A stretch of DNA of 63,384 nucleotides, counting the filler, from Stramenopiles sp. TOSAG23-6 (taxonomy: Eukaryota): assembly GCA_900128565.1 (NCBI GenBank). It is 12 parts of 12 records of this genome, joined end to end, with 100 filler letters (N's around TTAATTAATTAA, not from the genome) between each part and the next. Parts side by side here need not be neighbours in the genome. Positions count along the whole stretch, not along the records: positions 1 to 6,626 come from LT636671.1; positions 6,727 to 13,347 come from LT636672.1; positions 13,448 to 20,051 come from LT636673.1; positions 20,152 to 26,745 come from LT636674.1; positions 26,846 to 33,418 come from LT636675.1; positions 33,519 to 40,089 come from LT636676.1; positions 40,190 to 46,744 come from LT636678.1; positions 46,845 to 53,392 come from LT636679.1; 4 more parts are not named here. One strand, written 5' to 3'. Under the pieces are notes generated by a model that ran no database searches, was not told where the DNA came from, and was given only the letters and a program-made list of their open reading frames with translations. Below, piece by piece: positions 1 through 63,384 of the stretch. The number at the start of each line of letters is the position of its first letter. Within the stretch, counting starts at the first letter, position 1. A program made the translations under genes and the position numbers.

Positions 1-53
1 ACAAAATTTCGTATGAAAAATAAATTCGAAATTGAAAAAAAAATAAAACATAC

Positions 54-3000
54 ATGCTTCCCTCAATAGAATGTTTCAACGCAACTTTGGCACCTGCCTC
101 AGCGGCAAGCTCAGCACGAGCTGCGGCAGCTTCTGCTTCAGCCTTGAACTTTTTGCTTTCATTCGCTTTCTGCTCTTCTCGTTGAGCTTTTTGTAAAAGA
201 AGATTTTCACTTCGATGCTGATTTTCGAATGCCCAATTAGCAGCTTGATTGGAATTGCCACTGCTCCGCTCTAATGCTAATTCACAAAATGCCTCAGACA
301 TGCCAATCATCGCAGATAACATCTTTGCATTTTCTTTCATTTGAGGATTTCCAACATCCTCCACTGGGTTACTTTTGATTTCAGATTTTTCTTTTTCGTC
401 TATTCTGGCAGAATTTTGTTTCTGATTCTGAGAAAGAGACAACGAACTATCCTTGTCTTGGCATTGAACTAATTGTAGAGTTATGACGAGAGTTTTAGCA
501 CGCAGTAAAGCTAATTCAAGTCCCGGAACATCAACAGATGTAGGAAGTATTAAATTGGATAAAGGACTTGGCAGAGGAATACTTGCTCGTTCGATTATTG
601 AGCGTAAAAGATTTGGACGTTGAATTAGAAGTGAGTCAAACTTCGAATCACAAGTAGTGTTAAAAGAATCAAGTTGTAACTCCCTTTCTATGCATAATTC
701 CATTACCTTGCATACAGATCTACGCAATTGAGACCATAGTAGTTTCCAAGATGACTTAATGTTTTCATATTTTTCACCATGGTCAACCTGAACATTTTCT
801 TTTAAGCAAACATTACTCGATTCAAAATTATCATTCATCTTATTCTTTATACCTATAGGAAGCTTCATTATTGGGGTTGATAAAATATCATCATTCGAAG
901 TTGAATCCATACCAAATTTAGTACCAGACACTTTTTCACGATATGGTTTGTTTTCTATATTATCCATTTTAATAGCTTCTTCTGCATTTGCTGAAGAATT
1001 CACACACGGTAAAGATGATCGCAATAAAGATAACACAAACGGCATAACGTCATTCAATATATCGTCATGTAATGCGGGACCGCCAGCTTTAATCATCGCA
1101 GGATCAATATATTCACTATTATGAAGATTGCCATCCCACACTACGCCAATACCTCTTGATTCGCGATATGGTTCGTCTTCATCAAGAGGGTGCATGAGAG
1201 TACCTTCCTCCTTATTCACTGGCATAAACGGTGATGAAAGTTGTACACGACCACCCACACGTAAATGTTCGACTAAACCTCCATACACATGTAATACAGC
1301 AATCCCTTTCGTTAAGATTGATATAGATGGCGCATGATCTTTTCTACTATTCGAAAATTTCTCATGGTCGTCTTTATTTCTGAATGCACTATTATTTGTG
1401 GTTTCCCGAAGAGTAGAAAGTAGAAATTCTTTCGTTGACTTTGACCAATCAATGCCACAATTACCATTCAAAAGCAAACGGAAAAACTTACTTGCTTCAG
1501 AAGCACGCTCAAGACATCGTTCACCAATACCACCATCATCCTGTTTCACATAATTCTCTATAAAGTAATCAATAGTTTTTTTCGTATATTTCTTTGATCT
1601 CCGACGTATCGGATGAGACTCACCTGTTTCATCATTGTATTGTAATGCAGATGAAAAATCAATGCCATATAATTTGGAATCTATACAGAGACCTTGGTAA
1701 GCTTTATTCGCTTTAAATGCTTTCTCTAGTTGACAAGATGAATCTCGGTCATACGACTTCCAATCGCCAGTATATTTTTGCCATTCCCAAATAAAGTTTT
1801 GATCGGTATTGTTAGATGTAGATTTACTCGATTTAGATTCAAAATTGTCTAAAAGATAAAGAGACGCTGGAGTAAATTCCAAAGTTTCCCCGTCATCAAA
1901 AGTTACATCAACAGTTCGGCGAAGCTGATTTAAGGATTTGATTTTGCCATTACACCCCGCGCGACTTAGTCGTTTTCGATCAAGCGCTTGTCTTTTTCTA
2001 AGAGATAACTCAAATAAAGCTTTTTTGTCAGATATCTTCGATTTGCTTTTATTCTTTGATGATCGGTCAGGCAAAGACAGAACCTGTTCCCAGTGCCCAC
2101 CAACTCGAGCTCTCAATTCTAATAATGTAGAATAATTTACAACTATCACAGCTTGAGAAGATTTACAAGTTGAAAATTTGAGCCTAGTAAGCGGCGAAAC
2201 AAAATTCTTCATATGCTTACACTTATCTACACGCCCGCCGGATCTAATCGAATCTTTCATACCATGAGTAACGGATGCTTCGACAGCTTTCAGCATGGTT
2301 GAAGATATCACTGAGAATAAATCTGACCACATGTCAAAAGTATTATCGCCTGACTCACATGAAGCTACAAAGAGTCTTGCCTGGCGGGCTCTTTCCTCAT
2401 GATTGGGTGATAAAGGAGAACGCGGAGGCAGGTTCGGGTTAAATGTACGCGGAGACTTTGGCAACGCTGACCTTGGAGGCAACACACATAAAAATAGTTC
2501 CACAACACGTCGCTGAAGTCTACCTGAACCAAAAGTGAACAACTGCAATAAACTGTTGACATTATCAGGCGCAATCGCAAGAACAGCAATACTTCGAGAA
2601 TGAACTGGATATAATAATCTAAGGAGCTCAAAACAATGATCATCAATTCTACTTCTTTCAAAGTCAAATTCTGCGACAGTCAGACATGTTTTACTCGTTT
2701 TATAAGATTCTATCAGCTCTTTTAATTGCTCGGCCCATCGGCGAATCTCAGAATAAACGACTAAAGTAATTTGTTGAGATACTCTACACGACACTGCGTC
2801 TTGTTTATGTTTATAAACATATCCAAATTCATTTGATACCTCGGAATTTTCGCGCTTATTTACTGCTAGTTGTAACAACATCAAACGCAATGTAGTCAAA
2901 GCCATTGGCATAAGAGTATGAGGAAGAGTTGGAGATGGTGTACGTTTTTTCATTTCGTGGACGTTTGGCCGAGTAACACAATTTTCAGCCAAAGCATTCG

Positions 3001-6000
3001 TTGAAGCATTACTTTTTGAATTCATAGTTGTCAAATTACTTCCAATAGAAGGTTCGCCTAGATGTTCAAGTTTTTGTGCCAGTACAGCCAATAGCCCAGT
3101 TTCCTCTGGTACAGACCTAGATATAATAGGAAAAAGACCCCAAAGTGCCATTGCATGTTTTTGTATTGAAATGGTATTATCGTTGTTAATAAATGATACA
3201 AGAGCACCTAATAATTTGTTCCATGATGAAAAAACTTCAAAAGAAATTTTAGGATCACACAAAGGGAGGTCCGATAAGACTCCGCGACAATCAAACTTCA
3301 CTAAATGTGTATTTCTAAGAAATACAGAATCTCTTGAATACGTGCCATTTTCACTGTCTGCTCTTTGGATCATAGAGGCGTTCATTTTTACATCCGATAT
3401 AATTTGACCCATCGATGCTCGAATACAACAAAATAAAGGCTCAACGGCCAACGGACCACCAACTAAAAAAAACGATCTAGCTGCTTGAATTCCAGCAGAA
3501 CGACGCACACCACGAGCAGTAGATAAACGTTGTAGATGTTGTAACGACAAAGTGGGCAATACATCAGGAGATGTGATGAATGATTGAATTGCTTCCAATA
3601 TTTCACAGCGATGTTTGAATGTATACAAATTTTCACTTTCTTCTACATATATTTTCTTTACAATAAGATCTTTATCATCATCAAGATAATCATTTTTAGG
3701 CTCTGACCACCAATTATCTATTAAACTATCTAAAAAGGCAACACGCAAAAGAACAGGTTCAATGAGTGAAGATACAGCTGGAGGATGCTCGCCAATATGC
3801 AATTTTGACGTCAAAGTTTGTTTTCGTAAATAAATAGTTTTTTTGACTACCAAAGAAAAGTTCCAAATTTGCATTACAATACTTGATGGTCTTTTTGAAA
3901 TGAGTTCCTCATCATTTTCCTCAGAATTTTCTTTAGCTAATATATTAGAAATTTTNCGGAAGAATCCAACAAGCTGAAAACGTTTCATGGCCAATATGAC
4001 TATTTCTCTGCATAGTCCTTTCATTTCAGAACCACCAAAACGACGTAACCCGAGATTTTCTCTAGAGTGGTTTTTAAACCACATTTCCAACGGACAATTT
4101 CCAGATCGAAATTGAGATAAAAACACTTTATTCTTTTCATCAACATCANATACTTGTTTCTTCTCACTATTAAAACTATTTACATTATTTGATGCATACA
4201 AATCAGGCAACAATGGATATCTCAAGCTATGGCAACACTTTGCCAATGAGATTTGAGTAACACCTTTTTGTCTGACAAAAAAAAGTTCATCATCCACTAA
4301 TTTGTTTATCAAGTTTCTTTCACTATCTATAATAGATGTTGTGGCAACAGATGCCTTGATCATATTATTTATAACACCACTAAAAGCGCAACCCACCGCG
4401 GATTCTAAAAAATCAAATGATTGCTCACCAAATGCACTGATTACTTTACTGTTGCGTGAACTCTTTATATAAGATAATTGTGATGCTAATAACGATAATT
4501 GTGGCAAAGAAGTTACCGAAACATTATCAGATAACTCATCAAAGTGAATGTATTTTGGAAAAATATTTCAAAGAAAATCGTTAGGTACAATTTTTCGTAC
4601 GAAAAATAAATTCGAAATTGAAAAAAAAAATAAAACATACATGCGAAGTACCAAAAGCGCTACACTACAAAATTCAAATGACACTTCTGCAGATCGTATG
4701 AGATTCATAACAGTCACGTTCTTTTTAGTTTCATCACTTAGTTTGTCTTTCGTTTCGGGTGATGTAATATTTTCTACACAATTAGATTGATTTGCGAAAT
4801 CATACTTATCAGAAATATCTACAAGAGATTTCATCATATTTAGAATTTCAGCAACAATTAGTCCAGCAAAACGCACAATAGAGGACACACACGCCAGTTT
4901 GAGAGAACTTTCGCCCCTGAGAGGTATCATTTTTAATAATGTAAATAATATTACACGGGGAAGTCTCAAATAAGAGGAGCATTGTTTTGTGTCTTTTCCT
5001 GTTTTTGCTTCTTTCGATGTTTTGGATACTTTTTCGCTTGTCGTTGTATTGTCAAAATTTCTAACGCTATTCAAAGAAAATTCAAATTCAGAACAAACAT
5101 GCTTCGTATTTGCCCGAATAAGAACTGTAAGAAGTTTGTAGAGATTATCAGTTTCCAATAGATATATCGATTGAGGAATGTTGTTACCTTTTTTCTTATT
5201 TTCTAAAATTTTGTTTTTGTCATAATNTTTTTCCATTGTATCAGAAATCGTCGCAACATCAGATGTACCAGATATTCCATTTTTACTCACGACACGAAAC
5301 CAAGATGTATTTTGGAAAAATATTTCAAAAAACAAATTGTTAGGTATAAAATTTCATACGAAAAAAAATTGGAATTTGAAAAAAAAAAAAACATACATGT
5401 TTTCCCATTGATAAATTTAGAAACCCAAAAAGATTTAACACCTAAAATATCTTTTTCATTCAATTTTGCAGAAACAATTTTTAACCAATGCGGGTTTATT
5501 GGATCTTCGTACGCTGATATAACTGTACCATTGGTAAATTTTGTTTTAGAAGAAGACTTTTTAGATGGACTCGAGCGGACGGTGCTATGAAGTTTTAGAG
5601 TTTTTAGTTTCCATTGGCAAATTTTTGACCAGCCTCCTAACAAAAATCTTAGATCATCCGTTTTCCACCAAGGTTCCATCAGTTGGGATATGTGTTTCGA
5701 TGTAGCATACAATTTAGCCACAGATGCATGTACCATAGGTATTTCAAGTATTTCAGTAATATTTTCAATATTGGCTCGACTACGAATTAAATTAAATTCT
5801 AATTTAGATGTACTACTCGATGATTTTTTACGCTTTTTTGTTTCTAATGGCAAATTTGTTTTTTTTAAAGAAATCTTTGAGATAGAATCTTGACCAATGT
5901 AAAGTAAAAAAATATTTGTTTTAAGTAAAAATTCATTAGGTACAAAATAATTTTGCAAAACATTAAAAGAATAAAATTGAAATATGTGAGAAAACGTACA

Positions 6001-7412: not shown

Positions 7413-10400
7413 TTACTTCCCATTGTCAGAATCTATTTTAATTGAAAGCTGTTTTCGAATTTTGAAAGAATTTGTTTTATTTTTTGTTGTTTTTGTTGTT
7501 TTTGTTGTTTTTGTTTTATTTTTTGTTGTTTTTGTTTTATTTTTTGTTGTGTTTGTGTCAATATCAATGATGTTTTCATTATCATTTGTTGTACTTTCTT
7601 TGTAGTCTTTACTTAGTAAGGAAGAAGAAACATCATCTTTGAATATAGCATCTCGTGTTTCATTACTTTTTTGTCTTGCTTTCTCATTCTGAAAATGTTT
7701 TTTATTCTGCTCTCCATGTGTTTTGAAAAAATATTTCAAAAAAAATTAAAAAAATTTGTTAGGTACAAAATTTACTATAAAAAAAAATGTAGACAAAAAA
7801 TTGAAAAAAAAAAAAAAACATACATACACCATATTAGCAGCACTTTGCAAACGTATTAATAGCTTAAACCCAGCAATCCAGTTATCGCGCTCTGTCTCCG
7901 TATAATACACTATATGAAATATTACATCATCTTTTAGTATAATTGACAAATATAAGTTTTCATCAATGTTTCTCACAACCTTGCCTTTTTTTTTTACTTG
8001 TATTTCAGAGAATTCAGGAGATTTTTTTCCCTGGATAATTTGGACAATATCATTCACTGGCATAGATTTATTGTACAAATCTTTGACATTTCCTTTCGAC
8101 CAATGTAAGCACCAACTACTACTACATTGACCAGATGTATCATTTTCAGTTGCGTCAAGATTACTTGGGGCAACCCAAATGTATCTAGAATGAAATTTTA
8201 TTTCTTGACCCATCTTTTTTTCTACTGCGCATCCTTTAAGGATACTTTTCAATGCTTTCTGTTTGCTTTCATTTAATTCGCACAAATTTGTTAAATCTGT
8301 CAAAATTTTTTCCATTTGAATCCTTGGTAATAGAGCTTCAGGATTACACTTCCGTTTATACATTCTCTGTTTTAGTAACCATGAAAACATTCGACTCGTA
8401 GTTTGAGATTTATTTTTGGAATGATTTTTATTCGATGGTTTCGGGATACTACCAGTACTTCCAACAGAATCAGTGCTATCCATACGTTCAATATTTACTA
8501 CATCTTTACAATCGTTACTCTTTATACCTTTAATAATTTTTCCATTTTCGATATTTTTTTTCATAGTAAATTTTGTACCTAACAATTTTTTACTTTCATT
8601 TTCTGTATTTTCTGTATTTTTTGTATTTTCTGTATTTTTTGTATTGACGACACTATTTGGACAATTTTTATCACTTGTACTACCCGCAGTATCAGTTGTA
8701 GAAATATCTGTAGTTAGTGCAAAAAAACTTTTATCTTTTCTTGTAGGAGTCTTTAACGTACGAAATCTACTTGCAACTAAAGACCAACGATCTCTAGCTT
8801 TTCCTACAGCTATTCGTCCAAGGCATGTATTGTGAAAAAATATTTCAAAAAAAAAAAATATCGTTAGGTACGAATTTTTCAAAAAAAAAAAACTTGGAAA
8901 AAAAAAATTGAAAAAAAAACCTACACTGTTGACAGACACATGAACCACCAATATTACACGAAATACTACATGAAACCTTACCGTGTTGACTACAAAAGAC
9001 ATCATTGCACATATAACAATAATGTACTCGCTTACCCCAAAATTTAAAAGAAACGTTGCATGTATTACAGACATTGGCTACAAACTGAGGGGAGTCAGGA
9101 ACTAGAGGATCGGATTTCAGTGATGCTGTTTTTCTATTACGAATCGTGTAATAATAATAACCAAATCTCACGGTCAATAGTATAGACATACAGAAAACAC
9201 ATAATTGTATCACTTGAAAAGTCATTTCAATCGATGTTGCAATGAAATTAAAAATTGCCCAAGGATTAGTTGACGAAATTTCTTCCATTGAGATTATTGT
9301 GTCATTAGGGTTAGGGCTATCTTCAACACTAATCGATCCTTGGGTCAAAACATTTGAAATACTATTCCCTGATTGGCATATTTCAGATTCTCTGCGTTCA
9401 GTGTTTCTTTCAACACTTCCAGGAATGAAACATTGTTTTTCGGGTGGATCACATTCATCTACTCGTGCTGTATCGCATGAAGTCACCATTGTCCAGTCAC
9501 TACCACCGGCCATATTCCACACTTGCACCCGAAAGTCGTACGAAACGTCTGAAGCTAAATTTTTACACAAAAACTTTAAACTTTCTGTTCCCTTTACTGA
9601 TAGCACACGCCACGTGGCATTACTTGGATCATCATCAGAATCAACTTGGACTCTATAAGTGTGAAGGGGTAAACCATGAGGTTTCCGAGATGGAGGAGTC
9701 CATTTAAGCAAAATTTCACCGCATTTTTTAGGAATACAGACAAGCGAAGCAGGTTTTGCTGGAACATCAGCAATTCCCATAGATCGAATTTTGATTCCTC
9801 GAAGTAATTTTATACGGTCTAATTTTGACTCAATTTGAAGTTCTTCTTTTAATGCTAATCCATTTTTTTCCATCAAAAGTGGAAAATCAAATCCAGTTAT
9901 GGCATGATTTCGAAATATTTCAGCATATTTTGGGAGCTGTACAGCAAACTTCACCCAGTCTACGACTTTCTCTACGGTCAATAAATGTTCTAAATTAGTC
10001 ATAAATGTCCTAACATCAGATTTTCCAATATTTGAATCCGAGTCATCTCTACTTTCAAGATTTTCAAGCATTTGTGATACAGCATGATCAATTTCTTCCG
10101 CTTCATCAAAATTACTTCCACCTAACGCGGCCACAATTTCTCGAACTTCATGCTCCTCAATTTTCCCATTACTATCCGTGTCAACAGAGTCAAAAACTGA
10201 GTCACTTGCATTCATTGAAGCGAGGAGCCGATCTCCAGGTATATTAGTTACAGTTCCCAACGTGGATTCAATACATAAATATAGACACATTATTGATAGG
10301 ATAAAATTATAGTTTAAAGAGTATACACCTAAATGACGTTGACATTGTTTCTTTTCAAATGGGTTTGTCATTATTCCAAGAGATCCAATAATTTCGTCGC

Positions 10401-13257: not shown

Positions 13258-13528
13258 GTATGTTTTATTTTTTTTCAATTTTTTATCTACTTTTTTTTTT
13301 CATACGAAATTTTGTACCTAACAAATTTTAGTTTTTTTTTTTGAAATNNNNNNNNNNNNNNNNNNNNNNNNNNNNNNNNNNNNNNNNNNNNTTAATTAAT
13401 TAANNNNNNNNNNNNNNNNNNNNNNNNNNNNNNNNNNNNNNNNNNNNAAAATATTTGAAAAAAAAAATCGTTAGGTACAAAATTTCGTACGAAAAAAAAT
13501 TCATAGTAAAAAAAAAATTAAAACGTAC

Positions 13529-19996: not shown

Positions 19997-20238
19997 ATGT
20001 ATTTTGGAAAAATATTTCAAAAAAAAAAAACTAAAATTTGTTAGGTACAAANNNNNNNNNNNNNNNNNNNNNNNNNNNNNNNNNNNNNNNNNNNNTTAAT
20101 TAATTAANNNNNNNNNNNNNNNNNNNNNNNNNNNNNNNNNNNNNNNNNNNNAAAAAAAAATTTTGAAAATTTGTTAGGTACAAAATTTCGTACGAAAAAA
20201 AAAATTTAGGAAAAAAATTTAAAAAAAATAAAACATAC

Positions 20239-33374: not shown

Positions 33375-33571
33375 TTCTTTGTATGTATTTATATCTGTAT
33401 TATTTTGATTATTTTGATNNNNNNNNNNNNNNNNNNNNNNNNNNNNNNNNNNNNNNNNNNNNTTAATTAATTAANNNNNNNNNNNNNNNNNNNNNNNNNN
33501 NNNNNNNNNNNNNNNNNNAAAAAATAAATTCGATTTTTTTTTTACCGGAAAAAAAAAAAAATAAAACATAC

Positions 33572-39464: not shown

Positions 39465-40019
39465 TTAAACAGCCGGATTCCTATTGATGTAAGGCAATCG
39501 ACTTGCTTCAGCTTTAGGCCCTATTCTATCAATTTCAATATTTGTTACAATTTTAGGTGGTTGATAAGCTGGGATAGAGTCACTTTCTTGAATGGATTCT
39601 AAATTCAATTTCTTACGATTTTCTGTAGTTAATTTTGACTTTGATTCCATTTTTTTTAAGTGTTTAATTCGATTACGTAATGCATTTATACTCTTTGCTG
39701 AATGAATGGATTTTAGAGATTTCGATTCAGACATTAAACTTTGTATAACACTGACATATATTGTGAAAAATATTTTTTTTTGGAAAATTTGTTAGGTACG
39801 AAATTTCGTATGAAAAATTTTAAATTAAAAAAAAAAAATAAAACATATATCATCATCAAAACCATCGTTATATTTCTCTTCCAAATTAGGGTTAGGGTTA
39901 TCTTCGCCTAATTGTTCCCAATTTCGAATTATATCTTTACTTAGCTTCACACGGCTACTAGTATTTGATCTTCTTTCGGCTATTTTCTGAGTAATGGCTC
40001 GTTCTAGAGCATCTACCAT
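39465..40019 (-). CDS. Hypothetical protein, last two exons (40019-39849, 39755-39465)
   Basis: Two ORFs joined by intron 39756-39848; preceded by a truncated family intron. Confidence 0.6.
39756..39848 (-). other. Family intron with AT donor (ATATGT...TAT, 93 nt)
   Basis: GAT|ATATGTTTT...TACCTAAC...CACAATATAT|GTC; in-frame stop inside. Confidence 0.75.
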
Positions 40020-40237
40020 ATATATTGTATAAAAATATTTTTTTTTTTTTTTTTTTTTTTAGTAAAAAAAATCGTTAGGTAAAAATTTTNNNNNNNNNNN
40101 NNNNNNNNNNNNNNNNNNNNNNNNNNNNNNNNNTTAATTAATTAANNNNNNNNNNNNNNNNNNNNNNNNNNNNNNNNNNNNNNNNNNNNAATTTCTTACG
40201 AAAAAAATTAAATTTGAAATTAATTGTGAAAACGTAC

Positions 40238-42639: not shown

Positions 42640-45600
42640 ATGGGACAATCTCTTGGTAAAAATGTCTTGGTTTTTCAATCAGGAAAATTTCACCATCCCG
42701 GTGGAATTTTTCCTTTTGTTGAAGGAAAAGATTGGGACGAAGCAAAGGCGAAGCACTCAGCTTTCATTCGCGCGGTACAAAAAAATCTTTTAAATACAAC
42801 TTTCTTATCCAGCATATTAAAGGGCGATGCTGCATTTGTTACATCTGCGATTGAATATTATCAAAATTCATCTGATGAGTACACATCGGAACATTCTGTA
42901 AACAGTGCACACCTCAGCGCAAAATTAGATGCGGAGCATCTTCTCGAAGGTCTTTCTAGTTCACGCCCTCCGAGTTCTCCATTTGTGTCTACCTTACAAC
43001 GTCGATTAATGGCTCTCTTGGCACTAAATCCGCTTATAAAAGCAGAGAGAAAATCTGTGGGCCAACGATACGTGAAGCGTACTTTAGGTGCACCTGCAGC
43101 TACAGTTACTACAACAGAAATCTGTCTATCCACTATGTCTGCACTCGTACAACATTTAAGCTTTGAAAAATCACAGCAATATACTTTATCACACACAATC
43201 AATGTTCTTGAAGATGCGTTGTCCCAATACAAACCATTGTCTTTATTTAAAGATTGGTGTATGTTTTACTTTTTTTCAATTTCGAATTTATTTTTTGTAC
43301 GAAGTTTTGTACCTAACAAATTTAAGTTTTTTTTTTTTGAAATATTTTTCCAACGTACATCACCGCCTCCAGCAGCTCCTGAAACCTCACTTTGTTTGGA
43401 TCCAAAATGGGTTCGCTCAACCGTACAAGACTCAAATTTCCCAGCAACACGCGCTATAGATGGCCGAGGTCGAGATTCTTACTGGAAGACATGTATGTTT
43501 TATTTTTTTTTTCAACAAAAAAAATCGATTTTTTTTTCATACGAAATTTTGTACCTAACAAATTTTTTAAGATTTTTTTTTGAAATATTTTTCCAAAATC
43601 CATATTCATCTCCAGCTAATGCAGAGTTCTATATAACTCTAGAAAAGCCTAAAAAAATTGCATCTCTAGTGATTTTTTGGGCACAGGATGACTATGGCAG
43701 TCTTTGGGCACCCGAAAGTTGGAGTATCAGCTCTTCTTCGGATGGAAAAACTTGGAAAAAAGTATCAACTTTTTCAAACAAACAAACTATTTCCAGAATT
43801 AAAGCTTCACAACAACGTCTTCCTTTGAAAGGATTGTTCACTCGGTACATTCGTATTTCATTCCATGGATTTCATTCTTTCAACTCAGAAGGGGCGCGAT
43901 ACTATGGAATTTGGAGAATGTCGGTAAATGTTGCAAAACCAGGTATACTACTGAATAATAGTAAAAGTGTAATCGAAGACCTTCAAAAGTGGTTACTGCG
44001 TGCTTCCAAGCAGTCTAAATTAAGATCAGGCGCTTTATCGTGCATGTTTTCTTTATATATTGCTTCGGGTTCTCTGCAATCTGCTCTCATGTTAGTTTTG
44101 GCTCTTCTACGAGGCGATCCGTTCATAAAAAAGGGGGATATCTATGAAAATAACCCTCTCGCTACCCGCAAAGGTTCAAAGAAATTAAAGTGTAAAGATA
44201 CCAATACCAAACCCAACGCAGGAGGTAAAGTTATCATCTCAGCATCTACTAGTCCAAAATCAAATCCATTGACGAAGACTTTGATCTGTAAAACAGAAGC
44301 ATACTTCAAAGATGTTTTTCAGAGGGAACGTAATGCTAAGAATAAATATGGGTATCTTGGTAAGAATAAGTCTATAGCAACCGCCTGTTTTGATAGAAAA
44401 TGTATGACTCGTTCATGTCTTGAGTTATCAAATTCGAATACTCGAGTGCACTCCAAGGAAGGATGTCATGATTCATATGTTTTGCTCAATATGGGTTTTG
44501 AAACTGGTCGGTGGGCATGGGAATTTGAATTGGCGACTCAAATTAGTTTTGGTGACGAATGTGTCGCATTAGGTATTGCGCGAAAGCCTGTTCATTCGGC
44601 ATCGTACCAAAGTAGTAAAGAATTTTGGATGTATCGTTGTTACAACGGGGAACTGTATGAGCATGGTCTGAAGAAATCACGGCGATGTGATCCTATTCAT
44701 GCGGGCGATACGGTTCGTTGTTGTCTAGATATGTATGCTGGGACACTCTCGTATAAAATAAAAGGTGGGAAATCGCAAGGCGTCGTCTTTGAAGGAATTA
44801 CGGGTAAAGTATGGCCTGCAGTGAGCATATACAGTTCTCAACAAGGAGTTACTTTTATTGCTTTAGAACAATGCGATGCAAGTTATACATCTTCTTGTAT
44901 GACGGAGCTGTCAGCATTGGACCCACATGCGCTTCCAGGTTGTGGTGAAATTTCAAGTACAAATAATCAAGAACAAGTCACATCGATCGGGAATTCTCCA
45001 AAACGTGAATCATTGCCATTAGATTTTCCATCTCGATCGAGAACTAGTAATATTCGCAATCACCAAAGAAATAATCAGGAGTTTTGGTTTGGTCATTTAC
45101 GTGAAGGTCTCCGTCATGGCGAAGCTGTTTTCTTTGACCCTGACATGGAGTGTTTTTGGTATGGGACATGGATTGATGGTAGACAACATGGCTTAAGTAT
45201 ACGAAAAAAAATAAAGAAAGGTAAAACGCCGGACGTACAAATAGCTGCTTTTGCAAATTTTACCACCTGGCCGAATTTAGATGCAATTTCGGATGATGAT
45301 ATAGAAAATAGTATCATCTGCTTATTCAATTATGGTCGTAATATTCGACGAGCCACGAGCAGAGATATAGAAAGCCAAATCGATTTTATGTCACCAAAGT
45401 GGCGACGTTTCTGTGGCTTTTCTGAGAATATATATAGTGGTATGAAGTACAATACTGATATTACTGGCCAACTATTTGAAAATGTCTCAGGTATAGATGA
45501 ATTTAATATCTCTTTTTCAGATGAATTTAATGTTTCTCACGAGGAACAATATCTTGCTAGTCGAATATTACTTTCACTTGCGCGTCTTTCCAGTGCAAAC

Positions 45601-46687: not shown

Positions 46688-46844
46688 GCATGTTTTATTT
46701 TTTTTCAAATTCGATTTTTTTTTCGTACGAAATTTTGTACCTAANNNNNNNNNNNNNNNNNNNNNNNNNNNNNNNNNNNNNNNNNNNNTTAATTAATTAA
46801 NNNNNNNNNNNNNNNNNNNNNNNNNNNNNNNNNNNNNNNNNNNN

Positions 46845-47818
46845 TGTGTATGATGATGTATGTTTCAGATTTCAATTTTTTTTTTTTTTTTTTTTTTTTA
46901 TACGAAATTTTTTACCTAACCAAAAAAAAAATGTTTTTTTTTTTTTGAAATATTTTCCCAAAATACATTCTTGCCACTGTTTTATATTATTATATTAATT
47001 TAAAAGGTGCTAAAAAAGATTATGGAGATACTGTTAGAGGTATCCAATTAGCTGCAGCAAAGAAAGCTTTATTAGCCCTTAGAAATAAAGATATTAATGA
47101 TGATCGACCAGAACATTCAAAAAACTGGCGGCCACAATTACTTGTTTTAGTGAAATTAGTAGAAAAAAAAACACCTAACCCTAACCCTAACATTGATTTG
47201 AATACAGTTAATTTTTCAGAGTATTCCAAAAATCAAAATGGTAATGAAAATGTAAAAAATAAAAGTGTTTTTACAGTGAGTAGACCAGCATTATTAGATG
47301 TCGCACAAATGATGAAAAAAGGACGAGGATTAACGATGTACGTTTTCAAAAATTAATTTTTTTTAATTTTTTTTAATTTTTTTAATTTTTTTTTTTTTAC
47401 TATGAAAATTTTGTACCTAACAAATATTTGTACTACACTTTTTTTTGACAATACATGATTCGTTCTTTTATACATGGTAGTGTTGTTACTCCTCATGATA
47501 ATGAACATAGACGTCCTGCGGCTATTTCATCATTAAATACTGCAGTAACAAAAGCAAAGATTAATGGATTTGTTGGTGTTACTGTACGTTTTATTTTTTT
47601 TTCAATTTTTTTTTCGTACGTAATTTCGTACCTAACAAATTTTACAAAACACAAAATTTTAATTTTTTTTTCAATTTTTTTTTCGTACGCAATTTCGTAC
47701 CTAACAAATTTTACAAAACACAAAATTTCATAATACATGTGGCAAGAGAATTTAAAACTGGAATGGATTGTATTCTTCAAGAAGTCGGCTTAGCAGGACT
47801 TACACCAAATGCTATAAT
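46845..47818 (+). CDS. SLC12 cation-chloride cotransporter fragment (exons 46845-46857, 46969-47337, 47457-47583, 47739-47818)
   Basis: KGAKKDYGDTVRG, HSKNWRPQLLVL, KKGRGLTM, KINGFVGVTVAREFKTGMDCILQEVGLAGLTPNAI. Confidence 0.88.
46858..46968 (+). other. GT-AT intron (111 nt)
   Basis: GAT|GTATGT...TACCTAAC...AATACAT|TC; little upstream context to test the frame. Confidence 0.75.
47338..47456 (+). other. GT-AT intron (119 nt)
   Basis: No AG inside; join GLTMIRSFIHG. Confidence 0.85.
47584..47738 (+). other. GT-AT intron (155 nt) with tandemly duplicated branch module
   Basis: ACT|GTACGT...AATACAT|GTG; the next AG would give a stop. Confidence 0.88.
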
Positions 47819-47919
47819 GTATGTTTTAGTTTTTTTTTCAAATTCGATTTTTTTTCGTACGAAATTTCGTACCTAATGATTTTTTTAGATTTTTTTTTAA
47901 ATATTTTTCCAAAATACAT
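47819..47919 (+). other. GT-AT intron (101 nt) joining two apparently different genes
   Basis: Full consensus (branch motif TACCTAAT); in frame. Confidence 0.75.
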
Positions 47920-48983
47920 GATAGTCAAAGAATGGCAAAAAGACATAGAGTTTACACCATCACCTGATGATACTGTATTGGGAATGTTAATGGCTCTTTT
48001 ATTTTCAACACCATCACCAGAGTCCATACAAAGACTCGAAACAATGCATGTTCACTTTCACAATATACCTAAATGGTGGCGAAATTCTTTACCCCGAAAC
48101 CAACCCATTGTGGGATTGCATTTACGACTTTTTGATACACAATCAACAAGTCCAAAATATGTACCTTTTTTATATTATACATTTCAAATTTATTTATTTA
48201 TGGTAGTACCAAATTGTATACCAAATATTTTTTTTTTTTTAACAAATTTCGATTGTCTCATACTTTTTTGTTGTACCTAATGATTTTTTTACGAAAAAAA
48301 ATAATATTTTACACAATTCAAGGTGGAGACAAACTAGGCCATTGGAAACCTGAAGCACGTGACTGGAACCTAGATGTTACTTCATTTATTGATTGTGCAG
48401 TTGAGTTATTAGATGAAGTGTATAAAGTTGACCGTCGACGGCCAATTATTCATCTTGCCACAGATAGCATTCAGTATCAGAGTGTAATCCAACGAAAGTT
48501 ACACGGACGAGGAGACGTTATTTGGTTGAGCAATCAAATAGTTCATACAACGGCAGAGAGCAAAATAAGTCCTGATAATTTAAATTCTGCAATATTAGAT
48601 GCTGCTTTAGATTGGTGGTTACTATCGGAAGTCGATCATATTCTGATAACTGGGGACTCCACGTATTTCCTAACTCTAACCCTAAAGCATTTTTTACTTG
48701 TGATACTTTCATTATTTTTTCATGAGAGACATATTTGTTGTATATACGAAACCACAGGTACTCCAGAACAGCATTACATCGAGGGTACTCCCGAGATGAA
48801 TCCTCCAGAACAAAAATCGCTTATCGTTGGGTCCAATGTTGCTGGTGGGAGGGTGATACAATTTGGGATAAAGATACAGTAACAGTAGATTTGCCGGGAA
48901 AGAAAAAAGAGCCTTTGTCGACTAGAAATTCTTGTAGGAAGCAATCAGTTCCAAGTAACCTCATGAATTATGCAGGGCCATAA
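47920..48983 (+). CDS. Fucosyltransferase-like C-terminal part (exons 47920-48160, 48322-48662, 48758-48983)
   Basis: IVGLHLR, IHLATD, ALDWWLLSEVDHILITGDSTYSRTA correspond to motifs I-III of alpha-2/alpha-6/O-fucosyltransferases. Confidence 0.7.
48161..48321 (+). other. Family intron apparently ending in AA (161 nt)
   Basis: TAT|GTACCT...TACCTAAT...CACAATTCAA|GGT; the adjacent AG (48322) gives a stop after four codons. Confidence 0.6.
48663..48757 (+). other. Canonical GT-AG intron (95 nt)
   Basis: AC|GTATTT...CCACAG|G; join gives STYSRTA. Confidence 0.8.
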
Positions 48984-52671: not shown

Positions 52672-52714
52672 GAAAATATAATAGTAACTGTACCATTTAT
52701 AAATAAAATTAAAA

Positions 52715-53337: not shown

Positions 53338-53544
53338 ATGTATTTTGGAAAAATATTTCAAAAAAAAAACTTAAATTTGTTAGGTACGAAATNNNNNNNN
53401 NNNNNNNNNNNNNNNNNNNNNNNNNNNNNNNNNNNNTTAATTAATTAANNNNNNNNNNNNNNNNNNNNNNNNNNNNNNNNNNNNNNNNNNNNTACGAAAT
53501 TTTGTACCTAACGATTTTTTTTGAAATATTTTTCCAAAATACAT

Positions 53545-56758: not shown

Positions 56759-57912
56759 TCAGTGACAAACTTTGCTCCAATTTTTTTTTGCTTTTGTCAT
56801 CAAGTTATGAACATTTTCCACATTAAATAAAAGTATTCTAGCACCTGAGAGACATCCACTTGGATATAAAGGCTGAATTTTCTGACCACATTCTTGACAT
56901 TCGAAAGTCCAATGAACCCAGGGACAAGGATGTGGAAGTTTAAAAAGTGTGTTACATTTTGGACATGTATTGTGAAAAAAACATTTAAAAAAAATATTTT
57001 TTTTAATCCGTTAGGTACAAAATGTCGTACGAAAAAACTTTCAAAAAAAAATAATTTTGAAAATGTACATTTTGTAGAAAAATGCAACGATTTTTCCTTA
57101 TCTCCACGAATGGGAAGAGCTGAATGAGACAGAGCATTTTTTTTGTTTCCATCTTCATTATCAGAGTCGTTCTTAACTTTTTGTATAGGAGGAGACGACA
57201 TTGGACTTAACAAATTTTGAGTCTCAGACATTGGACTTGACAAATTTTGAGTCTCAGACGATTCATCTGAAACTTTTTGTGGTTCGTTCTTATTATTTGT
57301 TACGACTATAGGCTCAGGTTCATCTTCAGTATCTGATGCATCACCCTGGTCTGTAATGTCCGTCGAATTAATGGTCTTCAAATTGTTTGAAGATTGAGAA
57401 CTTGAAACAGATGGTGATGTACTAGAGTTCGTCCACATGATGGCTGTGGCTTGAACTTTTGCCATAGCAGCCTCTTCTTTGACTAAACACTTTTTCAATT
57501 GTTCCATTGCAAGATTTTGATTCTGCCGTATGTTCTTTATTTGTACACTCATATGAGCCGCCTTTTGGAAAGAATCTGCAGCATGTATAATATCCTCAGT
57601 TGTCGATAGTGGATGAACACTAGAACTCAATTGCTTCGCGTAGTCTAAACAATCTCGGAAAGCTTGTCCAGTTTTCTTCCAAATGGTACTAGCTTTTGCT
57701 TCGTCCTCTTTTGCACGAGCCACTTTCTCTTGAGCATTTGCCAATTCCTGAAATGCGGCCATGGCATCCAGCGCACTGGGTGCTCGGACAGTCAACATAT
57801 CCTTTTCAAGATGATGAGTGACTGTCTTTTGCTTCTTCCGAGCTTGGGTTTTTGGTTGAATGACATCGTCTAAAAGACGCTTCGTTGGACGAGACATGTG
57901 TGCACATGACAT
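56759..57912 (-). CDS. Coiled-coil protein with C-terminal C4 zinc ribbon (exons ~57912-57069, 56964-56759)
   Basis: Spliced frame gives TKCPKCNTLFKLPHPCPWVHWTFECQECGQKI. Confidence 0.7.
56965..57068 (-). other. GT-AT intron (104 nt)
   Basis: AAAT|GTACAT...TACCTAAC...CAATACAT|GTCC. Confidence 0.85.
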
Positions 57913-60579: not shown

Positions 60580-61329
60580 AATATTTTTGTTGTACTCTAT
60601 ATAATACTATATGATAAGTATAAATTGATACATTTCTTTGTAGTAAAGTATATGATGAAATATATGCTGTTGTTCTTTGTAGTAAAATATATAATATATA
60701 ATATATGATGTCAGTATTTTTTCTATTTTATTTTTATATATATATATATACAGTATTATCTTGAAAATATCATTTCTGTTTCATGTTTGTACAATCAAGC
60801 ATAAAATGTCTTCTCTCTCTACATAATACTCAATACTAAATACTAAATACTCAATTATTTTCTCTTTCTCTTTCTTTTCTTCTTTTCTTCTTTTCTTCTT
60901 TTTTTGTTTTTTTAAATACAATATTGTTGGTATTGTATTATTTTTCAAAATGTTTTTTTTTCTTTTTCAAATTTTTTTTTGAAAGATTGAAATTCAAATT
61001 GTGTTAAATATCTCTCAAAACATCTTTTTTATTTCTTTGTTTTTTTCATTTTCGTTTTCGTGTAAAAGCATCATTTGATCTGGTACCGGGTTTGAATTGT
61101 TTTGACCTTTGTAACTGACTCTCTTTTTCATCCAGTGAATTTTCTAGTTCTACGNNNNNNNNNNNNNNNNNNNNNNNNNNNNNNNNNNNNNNNNNNNNTT
61201 AATTAATTAANNNNNNNNNNNNNNNNNNNNNNNNNNNNNNNNNNNNNNNNNNNNTATCCTATATAGGTTTTTCATTATTAATTTTTTTTTTTTTGTAATT
61301 TTTTTTTCATACGAAATTTTGTTCCTAAC

Positions 61330-61365
<36 letters not shown>

Positions 61366-61384
61366 AATATTTTTTTTACAATAT

Positions 61385-62269
61385 TTGATGTCAACACGAA
61401 ATATTGTATGACTGGATCATATGACAGAACATTGAAAATATGGGACACGAAATCTTGTAAATGTATATTAACAATTCCAGGGTCAAAATGCGAATTGGGA
61501 ATGTCTTATATACATGTTTGTTTTCATCATAAATTTAAAATTTATTTTTTTTTTTTCATACGAAATTTTGTACCTAACGATTTTTTTTTTTTAAATTTAT
61601 ATTTTCATCATTTTAAATTTTTTTTTTTTTTGGTAGAAAATTTTGTACCTAACAAAAAAATGTTTTGACATATTTTCACAAAAATATACGGGTGCAATTA
61701 CAGCATGTACATTCTCATCTTGTACTACATGTATGTTTTCATCATGAATTTTAAATTTATTTGTGTTTGTATGAAAATTAACAAATTTTTTTTTTTTTTT
61801 TGTATGAAAATTTCATACCTAATAAATTTTTTTTTTTTTTTTTACGAAATTTCATACCTAAATATTTTGTTTTTGAAATATTTATTTCCTACACATATGC
61901 TTTAAGTGGATCAAATGACATGACTGTAAAATTATGGCATTTAATTGGCCTCTCCTCAAATCCTAAAAATGATTTGAATAATTCAGATTTAGGGTTAGGG
62001 TTAAATAATTTAGGGTTAGGGTTGAATAATTTAGGGTTAGGGTTGAATAATTTAGGGTTAGGGTTAGACTTTACTTGTTTAGCAACTTTTTCAGGACATA
62101 CTGCACCGATTTCGTGTTGTATATTTATTCGTAATTCTGAAATAGATACAAGAATAGCTACTTCAAGTTGGGATTCTACTATAAAATTATGGAGTATTAC
62201 AAATATAAGTACAAAAAATTTTGAAAAAAATTNTGAAAAAAATTTTGAAAAAAATTNTGAAAAAAATTT
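61385..62269 (+). CDS. WD40-repeat protein fragment (exons 61385-61515, 61688-61730, 61897-62269)
   Basis: TGSYDRTLKIWD; spliced HTGAITACTFSSCTTYALSGSNDMTVKLW; GHTAPISCC..TSSWDSTIKLW. Family introns at 61263-61384 (ATAGGT donor), 61516-61687 and 61731-61896. Confidence 0.85.
61989..62067 (+). repeat. 21-bp tandem repeat built from TTAGGG (encodes LGLGLNN)
   Basis: TTAGGGTTAGGGTTRAATAAT, about 3.7 copies. Confidence 0.9.
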
Positions 62270-62369: not shown

Positions 62370-62444
62370 TATCCTATATAGGTTTTTCATTATTAATTTT
62401 TTTTTTTTTGTAATTTTTTTTTCATACGAAATTTTGTTCCTAAC

Positions 62445-62480
<36 letters not shown>

Positions 62481-63384
62481 AATATTTTTTTTACAATATT
62501 TGATGTCAACACGAAATATTGTATGACTGGATCATATGACAGAACATTGAAAATATGGGACACGAAATCTTGTAAATGTATATTAACAATTCCAGGGTCA
62601 AAATGCGAATTGGGAATGTCTTATATACATGTTTGTTTTCATCATAAATTTAAAATTTATTTTTTTTTTTTCATACGAAATTTTGTACCTAACGATTTTT
62701 TTTTTTTAAATTTATATTTTCATCATTTTAAATTTTTTTTTTTTTTGGTAGAAAATTTTGTACCTAACAAAAAAATGTTTTGACATATTTTCACAAAAAT
62801 ATACGGGTGCAATTACAGCATGTACATTCTCATCTTGTACTACATGTATGTTTTCATCATGAATTTTAAATTTATTTGTGTTTGTATGAAAATTAACAAA
62901 TTTTTTTTTTTTTTTTGTATGAAAATTTCATACCTAATAAATTTTTTTTTTTTTTTTTACGAAATTTCATACCTAAATATTTTGTTTTTGAAATATTTAT
63001 TTCCTACACATATGCTTTAAGTGGATCAAATGACATGACTGTAAAATTATGGCATTTAATTGGCCTCTCCTCAAATCCTAAAAATGATTTGAATAATTCA
63101 GATTTAGGGTTAGGGTTAAATAATTTAGGGTTAGGGTTGAATAATTTAGGGTTAGGGTTGAATAATTTAGGGTTAGGGTTAGACTTTACTTGTTTAGCAA
63201 CTTTTTCAGGACATACTGCACCGATTTCGTGTTGTATATTTATTCGTAATTCTGAAATAGATACAAGAATAGCTACTTCAAGTTGGGATTCTACTATAAA
63301 ATTATGGAGTATTACAAATATAAGTACAAAAAATTTTGAAAAAAATTNTGAAAAAAATTTTGAAAAAAATTNTGAAAAAAATTT
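62370..63384 (+). repeat. Exact duplicate of contig 61255-62269
   Basis: Same length and sequence, offset 1115, including n positions. Confidence 0.95.

What the first reader, a model, noticed from the sequence alone, without database searches (positions are those of the whole stretch)
1..63011. A dominant class of non-canonical introns that end in AT instead of AG (GT-AT introns)
Seen: 24 distinct complete and about 14 truncated insertions share four parts: a GTAYGT-like donor, a T-rich tract, a near-invariant TACCTAAC about 30-55 nt before the end, and a 3' module AATATTT..CA(A)AATACAT. Whole copies are always sense to the host gene. Removing GT..AT restores the frame in 20 of 21 copies where both flanking frames can be checked, and 14 of these have lengths not divisible by 3. 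In a few copies I chose between neighbouring GT or AT dinucleotides to fit the frame. Several copies contain no AG at all, and the next AG gives a stop within a few codons (6944, 19727, 45994, 47584). Established: U2 introns end in AG almost without exception (recognised by U2AF35 and Prp8), GT-AT is only a rare U12 variant, and abundant non-canonical introns are known from few lineages (Fritillaria, Amoebophrya, euglenids) with other signatures. Inference: this organism splices most of its introns using an altered 3' splice-site code. I am not aware of a description of this class.
Basis: partly seen in the sequence, partly recalled or inferred. Interest (0 to 1): 0.96.

Follow-up and report, generated by a model that had tools for sequence, protein, structure and literature searches.

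The report
Repeated gene introns ending in AT
The genes of this uncultured marine protist are interrupted by dozens of copies of one roughly 100-base repeated insert that has to be removed from GT to AT, not the near-universal GT to AG, to give sensible proteins; if RNA data confirm it, this organism reads a different end-of-intron signal.

Summary
The window is 12 assembly contigs joined by N spacers. The best protein matches are EukProt models labelled GSMAST32, a name that suggests a MAST-3 marine stramenopile. I found 23 complete inserts, one unresolved insert and about 13 copies cut by contig ends. All share GTAYGT, T runs, TACCTAAC (38 hits against 1.4 expected) and an end like CAMAATACAT. 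Every genic copy is sense to its gene. Removing GT..AT joins the longest flanking frames in 20 of 21 checkable copies. It also restores conserved protein sequence in a kinesin, a B9 protein and a SPRY protein. The first AG after the branch motif is in frame in only 3 of 18. The copies form one diverged repeat family (55-89% best pairwise identity), so they look like mobile introns ("introners"). The exon before them also usually ends in AT. I found no RNA junction: the one read-laying run did not cover the intron-bearing gene. Splicing at AT is therefore strongly inferred but not shown. My searches found no published description, and existing gene models of this assembly force GT-AG and damage conserved residues.

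The parts
1..53 (-). 5' part of a copy, cut by the contig end
   Evidence: listing: the reverse complement reads exon ..GCAT then GTATGTTTTATTT...; sense to the minus-strand ORF 2-3955
4548..4640 (-). complete GT..AT insert, 93 nt
   Evidence: joins frames of 194 and 132 codons; no AG inside
5305..5396 (-). complete GT..AT insert, 92 nt
   Evidence: no AG inside
5897..5999 (-). diverged complete insert, 103 nt, branch motif TACCTAAT
   Evidence: joins 208 and 202 codons
6727..6814 (+). 3' part of a copy at a contig start
6944..7046 (+). complete insert, 103 nt; holds one in-frame AG 30 nt before its end
7716..7823 (-). complete insert, 108 nt
   Evidence: joins 418 and 100 codons; in-frame stop inside
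8825..8924 (-). complete insert, 100 nt, donor GTAGGT
   Evidence: joins 511 and 358 codons
12374..12479 (+). complete insert, 106 nt; GT..AT is the only possible boundary pair
   Evidence: no flanking repeat; joins 221 and 123 codons
12827..12920 (+). complete insert; in frame only as 12827-12916 or 12831-12920
13258..13347 (+). 5' part, cut by the contig end
13448..13528 (-). 5' part, cut by the contig end
19727..19819 (-). complete insert, 93 nt, inside the kinesin motor domain; 10-nt direct repeat CACACTATAT at the exon end and the insert end
19997..20051 (-). 3' part, cut by the contig end (same kinesin gene)
20152..20238 (-). 5' part, cut by the contig end; mirrored at 26659-26745 by the palindromic contig
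33519..33571 (-). 5' part, cut by the contig end
33707..33907 (-). 201-nt GT..AT insert holding a tandem pair of antisense family fragments plus its own sense TACCTAAC
   Evidence: joins 270 and 62 codons
38088..38254 (+). diverged 167-nt insert in the B9 gene; keeps GTACGT, TACCTAAC and ..ATATTCTCTTACAATAAAT
   Evidence: Pfam B9-C2 positions 2-131 before it and 134-166 after it
39758..39844 (-). complete insert, 87 nt, donor GTTTTA
40019..40089 (-). 3' part, cut by the contig end (the end lies among ATATAT; exact base not fixed)
40190..40237 (-). 5' part, cut by the contig end
43259..43360 (+). 102-nt in-frame, stop-free insert; absent from homologs
   Evidence: LFKDW[34 aa]SPPPAAPE aligns to LFKEW-SPPRAPPE; the split codon T|CA gives the conserved Ser
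43493..43603 (+). 111-nt in-frame, stop-free insert; gapped in homolog P0070
45994..46082 (+). complete insert, 89 nt
   Evidence: joins 1135 and 220 codons; no AG inside
46692..46744 (+). 5' part, cut by the contig end
46858..46968 (+). complete insert, 111 nt; upstream exon too short to check the frame
47338..47456 (+). complete insert, 119 nt, in a K-Cl cotransporter-like gene
47584..47738 (+). 155-nt insert with its branch module duplicated in tandem
47819..47919 (+). complete insert, 101 nt, branch motif TACCTAAT
48161..48322 (+). unresolved insert: GT48216..AT48307 and GT48216..AG48322 are both in frame
53338..53392 (-). 3' part, cut by the contig end
53493..53544 (+). 3' part at a contig start, in front of the VPS11 exon
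56965..57068 (-). complete insert, 104 nt, donor GTACAT
   Evidence: joins 312 and 67 codons
59951..60039 (+). 5' part, cut by the contig end
61267..61384 (+). 118-nt insert in a WD40 gene, branch motif TTCCTAAC; upstream exon too short to check
61516..61687 (+). 172-nt insert with two branch motifs; followed by a 43-nt exon
   Evidence: It fails the automatic longest-frame test; I judged the frame from its WD40-like translation
61731..61896 (+). 166-nt insert ending ..CTACACAT
62370..63384 (+). exact duplicate of contig 61255-62269, with the same three inserts

Best explanation
The inserts are copies, at various stages of decay, of one short non-coding element that creates introns (introner-like). 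The host is an uncultured marine stramenopile. They are most likely removed from the pre-mRNA by a major-type (U2-like) spliceosome. The 5' splice site would be GTAYGT. The branch site would be the near-invariant UACCUAAC, followed by a T-rich tract. The 3' splice site would read YAU instead of YAG and lies 33-49 nt after the branch motif in family copies, at the end of a conserved ATATTTTTY-CAMAATAYAT module. Because the exon in front also usually ends in AT, the terminal AT is probably a duplicated copy of the insertion target. This is the way other introners obtain their AG from a target-site duplication. Exact removal of element plus one target copy would then restore the gene. Shown here: the repeat family; the sense-only orientation; frame restoration at GT..AT; protein continuity at three junctions; failure of the first-AG rule. 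Inferred: that removal happens in RNA; that the spliceosome does it; that UACCUAAC is the branch site; that the AT comes from a target duplication.
For: (1) Motif excess: 38 TACCTAAC against 1.37 expected. TACCTAA is invariant in 22 of 22 aligned distinct copies, while mean column identity is 83%. (2) GT..AT joins the longest flanking frames in 20 of 21 checkable copies, P 4e-9, or 17 of 21 without any boundary choice, P 1e-5. (3) GT..AT is the only dinucleotide pair possible for all 19 copies examined. AT..AC is possible in 11 and TG..CA in 14 of the 19. For 12374-12479 GT..AT is the only option. (4) Kinesin: the exon ends ..ARCHTI at the SSRSH switch I. GT19819..AT19727 gives ARCHTILTITIKKRK, which aligns to SSRSHAVVILRLTRK in homologs. 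(5) B9 gene: Pfam PF07162 positions 2-131 end at the donor and 134-166 start at residue 2 after the AT. (6) SPRY gene: homologs P0070 and P0132 lack exactly the 34 insert-encoded residues, and the split codon gives their conserved Ser. (7) The first AG after the branch motif is in frame in 3 of 18 copies, about chance. Ten of 23 have no AG at all, and 18 of 23 have none between the last branch motif and the end. (8) All 23 complete copies are sense to the flanking ORFs (P 1e-7), as are the truncated ones. (9) Copies form a family with 55-89% best pairwise identity. The most diverged members (38088-38254, 5897-5999) keep only the donor, the branch motif and the 3' module, as expected for selected signals. 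(10) Independent seawater DNA runs hold 60-76% of the contig's words. A 4681-nt DNA contig runs through the unresolved insert at 48161-48322, so that one insert is present in wild DNA; DNA contigs broke at the repeated copies.
Against: No read or contig that joins exons across any insert was seen. In one search the intron-bearing cotransporter gene had depth 0 to about 2 in the three RNA runs. The RNA runs did contain contigs that cross exon-insert boundaries of other loci (loose ends at 47831 and 47920). Insert sequence is therefore present in RNA libraries, as unspliced RNA, excised intron or carried-over DNA. Three boundaries needed a choice between neighbouring AT dinucleotides. One insert (48161-48322) also fits GT..AG. 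One copy (6944-7046) has an in-frame AG upstream of the AT. Two copies (43259-43360, 43493-43603) are in frame and stop-free and could be translated. No snRNA or splicing-factor gene of this organism could be examined: Rfam found only a tRNA in the window and no whole genome is held. The target-duplication idea rests on a 2-nt repeat, with one 10-nt case, and on weak 4-6 nt terminal complementarity.
Confidence: 0.7

Rival explanations
1. They are ordinary GT-AG introns whose 3' ends were misplaced, and the real acceptor is a nearby AG. This is how the existing gene models of this assembly treat them.
For: The EukProt model P0220 of the kinesin gene uses GT19819 and an AG 30 nt beyond the AT. 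In-frame AGs exist within about 120 nt downstream in 15 of the 18 copies listed; none appears among the six AGs listed for 12374, 47584 and 47819. 48216-48322 fits GT..AG.
Against: The first AG after the branch motif is in frame in only 3 of 18. The AG model of the kinesin deletes 10 residues (LTITIKKRKI) that homologs keep. An AG acceptor in the SPRY gene would delete the conserved SPPP, and one in the B9 gene would delete profile positions from 133 onward. The conserved 10-nt end module stops exactly at the AT in 23 of 23.
Confidence: 0.05
2. The inserts are cut out of DNA, not RNA, like the internal eliminated sequences of ciliates or a precisely excising transposon. The assembly would then show an unprocessed genome.
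For: Short terminal complementarity (ATGTAT...ATACAT) and a 2-nt flanking repeat resemble transposon ends. No RNA junction was seen.
Against: All 23 complete genic copies are sense to the gene, which DNA excision would not require. They carry a donor, a branch motif and a T tract in spliceosomal order. Seawater DNA runs hold insert-bearing sequence, and a 4681-nt DNA contig runs through the unresolved insert at 48161-48322. No skip joint listed matches an insert's boundaries, though 47 joints were not shown. From general knowledge, no programmed DNA elimination is known in stramenopiles.
Confidence: 0.05
3. The inserts are not removed at all. They would be a recent transposon burst that has broken these genes, or they are translated where they happen to be open.
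For: RNA libraries contain exon-insert boundary contigs. Two copies are in frame and stop-free.
Against: Eighteen of the 23 copies have an in-frame stop inside; of the five that are open, 5396 and 57068 shift the frame and 46858 has too short an upstream exon to judge. Long ORFs continue in the frame predicted by GT..AT removal in 20 of 21. The sense-only orientation and the conservation of signals in diverged copies indicate selection for removal. Affected genes include conserved ones (kinesin, VPS11, B9, K-Cl cotransporter).
Confidence: 0.06
4. They are minor-spliceosome (U12-type) introns. That class tolerates non-AG ends, and GT-AT is a known rare U12 subtype that has expanded in Physarum.
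For: [quoted passage not shown] ACCTAAC resembles the U12 branch consensus CCTTAAC.
Against: The 5' ends are GTATGT or GTACGT in 17 of 23, and none is RTATCC. The branch motif lies 33-49 nt from the end in most copies, not the roughly 10-20 nt I recall as typical of U12 introns. A long T tract follows the branch motif.
Confidence: 0.05
5. They are removed from RNA by a non-spliceosomal route. The paired insert ends (AU|GUAU with AUACAU) would guide an endonuclease and a ligase, as proposed for the end-pairing introns of euglenids or Amoebophrya.
For: Six bases of potential pairing span the 5' junction and the 3' end in the consensus copy. The boundaries are not GT-AG.
Against: There is no compensation. 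Exons ending GT, AC, CG, CT or AG still face ..AT, and GTACGT copies still end ..ATACAT. A tested hairpin at the branch motif does not exceed shuffles: 67.4% of cells paired against 66.5%. The strict GT, the yeast-like branch motif and the T tract are spliceosomal features.
Confidence: 0.07

Closest known systems
Introners: intron-generating transposable elements of Micromonas, Aureococcus and many aquatic protists (Gozashti et al., PMC9860276 seen in listing only; PMC12130899 passages; Huff et al. 2016 recalled)
   Same: Many related copies of one short non-coding element sit inside unrelated genes in the sense orientation and appear to be precisely removable. One splice signal is carried by the element. 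The other coincides with a duplicated target, since here the exon also ends in AT.
   Different: Known introners are described with canonical ends. The curation step quoted accepts only AG or AC as 3' ends. Here 23 of 23 copies end in AT. Neither clear terminal inverted repeats, nor a target duplication longer than 2 nt, nor an autonomous copy was found.
Non-canonical introns and introner elements of Amoebophrya (PMC7789003, passages read)
   Same: Both are marine protists in which non-GT-AG introns dominate. Part of the introns are repeated elements with short direct repeats overlapping the boundaries and complementary ends.
   Different: Amoebophrya shows no preferred terminal dinucleotides and has 8-20 nt inverted repeats forming hairpins. 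Here the ends are uniform (GT..AT), a strong branch motif and T tract are present, and end complementarity is only 4-6 nt with no covariation.
Non-canonical introns of the tunicate Fritillaria and divergent U2AF (10.1101/2025.08.15.670264, abstract in the listing; Henriet et al. 2019 recalled)
   Same: A major spliceosome is thought to process abundant non-GT-AG introns, and altered 3' splice-site recognition is proposed.
   Different: The lineage is different (an animal). As I recall, those introns have diverse boundaries such as AG-AC and AG-AT rather than GT-AT, and no TACCTAAC-type branch motif.
U12-type GT-AT introns (Physarum, 10.1101/2020.10.12.336362, passages)
   Same: The terminal dinucleotides are the same.
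   Different: That class is a small minority there, carries the RTATCCTT donor and has a branch site about 10-12 nt from the end. Here the donor is GTAYGT and the branch motif lies 33-49 nt from the end.
Yeast-type U2 introns (GTATGT ... TACTAAC ... YAG; recalled textbook knowledge)
   Same: The donor GTATGT is identical. The branch motif differs by one inserted C (TAC-C-TAAC). The end is Y-A-N with A at position -2 in 23 of 23. The spacing from branch to end is comparable.
   Different: The last base is T, not G. A roughly 19-nt conserved module precedes the end. The exon base at position -1 is T rather than G.

Membership tests
Major (U2-type) spliceosomal introns | 5' splice site GT with an extended match to U1/U6 (GTRNGT) | tested here: met
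   GT in 23 of 23; GTATGT 10, GTACGT 7, other GT 6
Major (U2-type) spliceosomal introns | Branch-site motif with a bulged A upstream of the 3' end, followed by a pyrimidine tract | tested here: met
   T[AT]CCTAA[CT] is present in all 23, 22-74 nt from the end and 33-49 nt in 20 of the 23. A T run follows it. Pairing to this organism's U2 was not testable
Major (U2-type) spliceosomal introns | 3' terminal AG | tested here: not met
   AT in 23 of 23; 10 of 23 hold no AG at all; first AG in frame in 3 of 18
Major (U2-type) spliceosomal introns | Removal from the transcript through a lariat | tested here: inconclusive
   no exon-exon joint seen; the gene had depth 0 to about 2 in the RNA runs
Minor (U12-type) introns | Donor RTATCCTT | tested here: not met
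   0 of 23
Minor (U12-type) introns | Branch site TCCTTAAC close to the 3' end (about 10-20 nt, recalled) | tested here: not met
   The motif is TACCTAAC, 33-49 nt from the end in most copies
Introners (intron-generating mobile elements) | Many similar copies of one element acting as introns in unrelated genes | tested here: met
   23 complete and about 13 truncated copies in more than 12 genes; best pairwise identity 55-89%; contigs break inside the copies
Introners (intron-generating mobile elements) | Transposon hallmarks: target-site duplication, terminal repeats, or a coding autonomous copy | tested here: inconclusive
   Exon ends in AT in 16 of 23; one 10-nt direct repeat (19727-19819); ATGTAT/ATACAT complementarity only; no autonomous copy in the window
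Introners (intron-generating mobile elements) | Presence/absence differences between close relatives (recent mobility) | not testable with these tools
   No close relative's genome or protein was found
Programmed DNA elimination (ciliate IES type) | Insert absent from somatic DNA; orientation irrelevant | tested here: not met
   Sense orientation in 23 of 23; DNA runs hold insert-bearing sequence. A deep search for insert-free DNA was not possible
End-pairing non-conventional introns (euglenid or Amoebophrya type) | Extended complementarity of intron ends, maintained by compensatory change | tested here: not met
   At most 6 nt with no compensation; the branch-motif hairpin is no better than shuffles

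The most novel reading that the evidence does not exclude
A whole lineage of marine stramenopiles has shifted the 3' splice-site signal of its major spliceosome from YAG to YAU. A burst of thousands of intron-generating elements that duplicate an AT target drove or exploited the shift. Essentially all of its introns would then be GT-AT, and published gene sets for the group would be systematically wrong.
Probability: 0.4. Interest if true: 0.93.

Novelty: new variant of a known kind. Interest (0 to 1): 0.82.

Why it matters
The terminal AG is one of the most constant signals in eukaryotic gene expression. It is read by U2AF35 and then by the catalytic core, where the last G contacts the first G of the intron. 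A free-living, abundant ocean protist in which a U2-like intron class ends in AU would be a natural experiment on how the second step of splicing selects its site. It would also show how far an invading element can push the host machinery. There is a practical consequence. The existing gene models of this assembly force GT-AG. They delete a conserved kinesin strand and cut five pieces out of an intact VPS11 reading frame. Gene counts and reported gene losses for such genomes may therefore be annotation artefacts.

Tried and rejected
- RNA test. The look-up of sequencing runs found 4 RNA-labelled holders. The second, on contig 46845-53392 with three RNA runs and one DNA run, covered the intron-free Ank/fn3 gene thinly. 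The cotransporter exons had depth 0 to about 2. No exon-exon joint was listed, and 47 joints were not shown. This is neither support nor refutation.
- Depth ratios. Summed depth over the repeat bins, relative to exon contigs, was about 3000-fold in the DNA run, roughly 700-900-fold in two RNA runs and roughly 16-fold in the polyA run (my arithmetic). The tool warns that such depths cannot be compared, so I draw nothing from them.
- Transcript-derived proteins. The representative search with the SPRY ORF gave 35% as the best identity. The kinesin exon search returned only this assembly's own model and two distant hits. A search for short proteins with exon 52718-53335 gave one unrelated hit. 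No spliced fragment exists in those collections.
- Other copies elsewhere. Two pattern scans of metagenome contigs and one of viral contigs gave 0 hits.
- Whole genome. None is held for this window, so snRNAs, U2AF and copy number could not be examined. Rfam on the window found one tRNA only.
- Hairpin at the branch motif (GTACGAAATTTTGTAC). 67.4% of cells paired against 66.5% in shuffles, with 2 double changes. Not supported.
- AT..AC reading (boundaries shifted by 2). Possible in only 11 of 19 copies.
- Splitting the cotransporter exons against solved structures. Exon 46970-47335 matches KCC chains (E 1e-12). The 26-residue exon has a KCC domain as its top hit at E 0.23. Exons 47458-47583 and 47921-48160 gave no family hit. 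These are too weak to fix junctions.
- Earlier notes of this scan. Nothing on this genome; the word hits concerned Ostreococcus and human introns.


Full report
What the window is. The 63,384 bases are not one molecule. They are 12 contigs (nine of about 6.6 kb and three of 1,015 bases) joined by spacers of 44 N, TTAATTAATTAA and 44 N. Contig 20152-26745 equals its own reverse complement, and contig 62370-63384 repeats 61255-62269 exactly. Both are typical artefacts of amplified single-cell assemblies. The ORFs encode eukaryotic proteins: VPS11, kinesin, a B9 protein, a K-Cl cotransporter-like protein, U-box/Sel1, WD40, and ribosomal proteins S26e and L27. Two EukProt proteins labelled GSMAST32 (P0001, P0220) match the window's ORFs exactly outside annotated gaps. 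They are gene models of this same assembly, and the label suggests the MAST-3 group of marine stramenopiles. No other close relative appeared in any protein search.

The observation. TACCTAAC occurs 38 times against 1.37 expected; four of these are duplicates from the two artefacts above. Lining the hits up by strand shows one repeated unit. It runs: exon, usually ending AT; then GTAYGTTTT, a T run, often CAATTT, another T run, CGTACGAAATTTTG, TACCTAAC, RA, a T run, GAAATATTTTTY, and CAMAATACAT; then exon. I count 23 complete copies of 87-201 nt. One further insert is unresolved, and about 13 copies are cut by contig ends; the truncated coordinates are hand-counted from the, 16 and 75 outputs. 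Assemblers evidently break inside this repeat. All 23 start with GT and end with AT. The last three bases are CAT in 18, TAT in 4 and AAT in 1.

Are GT and AT the true boundaries? Four tests bear on this.

First, the reading frame. Removing GT..AT joins the longest open frame upstream to the longest downstream in 20 of 21 copies that can be checked (P 4e-9 against one in three). In three of the 20 I had to choose a neighbouring AT. Counting those as failures gives 17 of 21 (P 1e-5). The one automatic failure (61516-61687) precedes a 43-nt exon, so the longest downstream frame reads into the next insert. I judged its frame from the WD40-like translation.

Second, uniqueness. Short repeats at the boundaries allow shifted readings in some copies: AT..AC in 11 of 19, TG..CA in 14 of 19. 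Only GT..AT fits all 19, and for 12374-12479 it is the only option.

Third, AG alternatives. The first AG after the branch motif is in frame in 3 of 18, about chance. Ten of 23 copies contain no AG at all, and 18 of 23 have none between the last branch motif and the end.

Fourth, homology.
- In the kinesin, the upstream exon ends at the SSRSH switch motif (..ARCHTI, aligned to KIF15 residue 225). GT19819..AT19727 yields ARCHTILTITIKKRK, which aligns without a gap to SSRSHAVVILRLTRK and SSRSHVCVIINALRR in two homologs.
- In the B9 gene, the Pfam profile is matched at positions 2-131 up to the donor and at 134-166 from the second residue after the AT. The second match is weak on its own (E 0.16), but its position fits exactly.
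- In the SPRY gene, two inserts are in frame and stop-free, so one ORF runs through them. Homologs P0070 and P0132 lack exactly those residues. LFKDW, then 34 insert residues, then SPPPAAPE aligns to LFKEW-SPPRAPPE, and the codon rebuilt across the junction (T|CA) gives the conserved serine.

What kind of thing it is. The copies are not merely introns with similar signals. They share non-signal sequence and sub-variants of it. Best pairwise identities run from 89% down to about 55-60%. That is the pattern of a dispersed repeat family of mixed age, which is an introner in current usage.

The oldest-looking members (38088-38254, 5897-5999, 33707-33907) are unalignable except for the donor, the branch motif and the roughly 19-nt end module. 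TACCTAA is invariant in 22 of 22 distinct copies, against 83% mean column identity. This argues that these three parts are kept by selection and act as removal signals.

All 23 complete copies are sense to their gene (P 1e-7), and so are the truncated ones. Antisense pieces occur only as fragments. One sits inside another insert (about 33770-33880), one inside an open minus-strand frame (about 8540-8600), and one in a short intergenic stretch (about 35950-36000). Sense-only survival is what removal from the transcript predicts. Excision from DNA would not need it.

The exon in front ends in AT in 16 of 23, and in one case a 10-nt direct repeat brackets the insert (19727-19819). This suggests that the terminal AT is a copy of the target site, as in introners that gain their AG from a target duplication. 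That last step is inference.

RNA evidence. This was the decisive test, and it did not deliver. Of 13 runs holding part of contig 46845-53392, four are labelled RNA. Laying two metatranscriptomes, one polyA run and one independent DNA run on that contig gave thin RNA cover of the intron-free Ank/fn3 gene and of the gene at 52718-53337. Cover of the five-intron cotransporter gene was essentially nil, and no exon-exon joint was listed. Contigs from other copies of the repeat piled up on the insert bins in all runs. In the RNA runs some of them cross exon-insert boundaries, so insert-bearing molecules exist in those libraries. A 4681-nt DNA contig from seawater runs through the unresolved insert at 48161-48322, so that insert is present in wild DNA; DNA contigs broke at the repeated copies. 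Searches of the protein collections for transcript-derived fragments crossing a junction found nothing. Pattern scans of metagenome and viral contigs also found nothing.

Comparison with known classes.
- Yeast-type U2 introns (recalled). The donor (GTATGT/GTACGT), the branch motif (TACTAAC with one extra C), the T tract and the Y-A at positions -3 and -2 all match. Only the last base differs, T for G.
- U12-type introns. None of the 23 has an RTATCC donor, and the branch motif lies 33-49 nt from the end in most copies. GT-AT is, however, a known U12 subtype (Physarum passages).
- Amoebophrya and euglenid end-pairing introns. End complementarity here is at most 6 nt and shows no compensation, and the boundaries are uniform rather than variable. 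A hairpin I suspected at the branch motif is no better than shuffled controls.

Is it published? I searched full text for the motif, MAST-3 with introns, MAST single-cell genomics, introners with non-canonical sites and GT-AT. I found no description of a dominant GT-AT class or of introners in this group. The introner survey I read in passages accepts only AG or AC as 3' ends during curation, so it would have discarded such a family.

A side result supports the reading. The existing models of this assembly force GT-AG. P0220 splices the kinesin to an AG 30 nt past the AT and loses a conserved strand. P0001 removes five in-frame GT..AG pieces of 39-75 nt from the uninterrupted VPS11 frame, and at least three of them hold residues conserved in homologs.

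Verdict. The boundaries GT..AT are well supported, and the class is best described as an introner-like family with a non-AG 3' end. Splicing by a U2-like spliceosome at YAU is the most likely mechanism (about 0.7) but remains inferred until junction reads are seen.

Noticed in passing
61975-62070; also about 47180-47197, 48674-48690, 39455-39470, and near 39870 and 23400: Telomere-like units (TTAGGG or CCCTAA, two in a row) lie in frame inside open reading frames. In the WD40 gene four TTAGGGTTAGGGTT units separated by AATAAT encode a repeated LGLGLNN. No explanation was sought.
   Followed up: no
53716-55665 (VPS11) and 18045-19865 (kinesin): The EukProt gene models of this same assembly (P0001, P0220) contain forced GT-AG introns. 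Five in-frame pieces of 39-75 nt are removed from an intact VPS11 ORF, and at least three hold conserved residues. A 10-residue conserved kinesin strand is also lost.
   Followed up: yes
20152-26745: The whole contig equals its own reverse complement (0 mismatches in 6594 bases). This is probably an amplification or assembly chimera, and every feature in it appears twice.
   Followed up: partly
61255-62269 and 62370-63384: Two contigs are identical, so their three inserts must not be counted twice.
   Followed up: yes
30099-30157: Two ORFs of about 1100 codons on the minus strand overlap by 59 bases in different frames, with no insert or intron-like sequence between them. This is a frameshift, either real or a sequencing error.
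   Followed up: partly
14285-14434 and 17894-18042: Two AT-rich stretches share a long common string (CATATCATGGAATTTTTAATTTTAAATCACAATATT...). They lie on either side of the nucleotidyltransferase gene and form a separate repeat, unrelated to the inserts.
   Followed up: no
47584-47738, 61516-61687, 33790-33880: In three places the middle module (T run, CGTACGAAATTT, TACCTAAC) is duplicated in tandem, giving two branch motifs in one insert.
   Followed up: partly
8540-8600 (+) and 35950-36000: Fragments of the family lie outside normal inserts. One is antisense within an open minus-strand frame, and one sits in a short intergenic or 3' UTR stretch without the branch motif.
   Followed up: partly
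42143-42210 (-): A tRNA gene is the only Rfam match in the window (58.9 bits).
   Followed up: no
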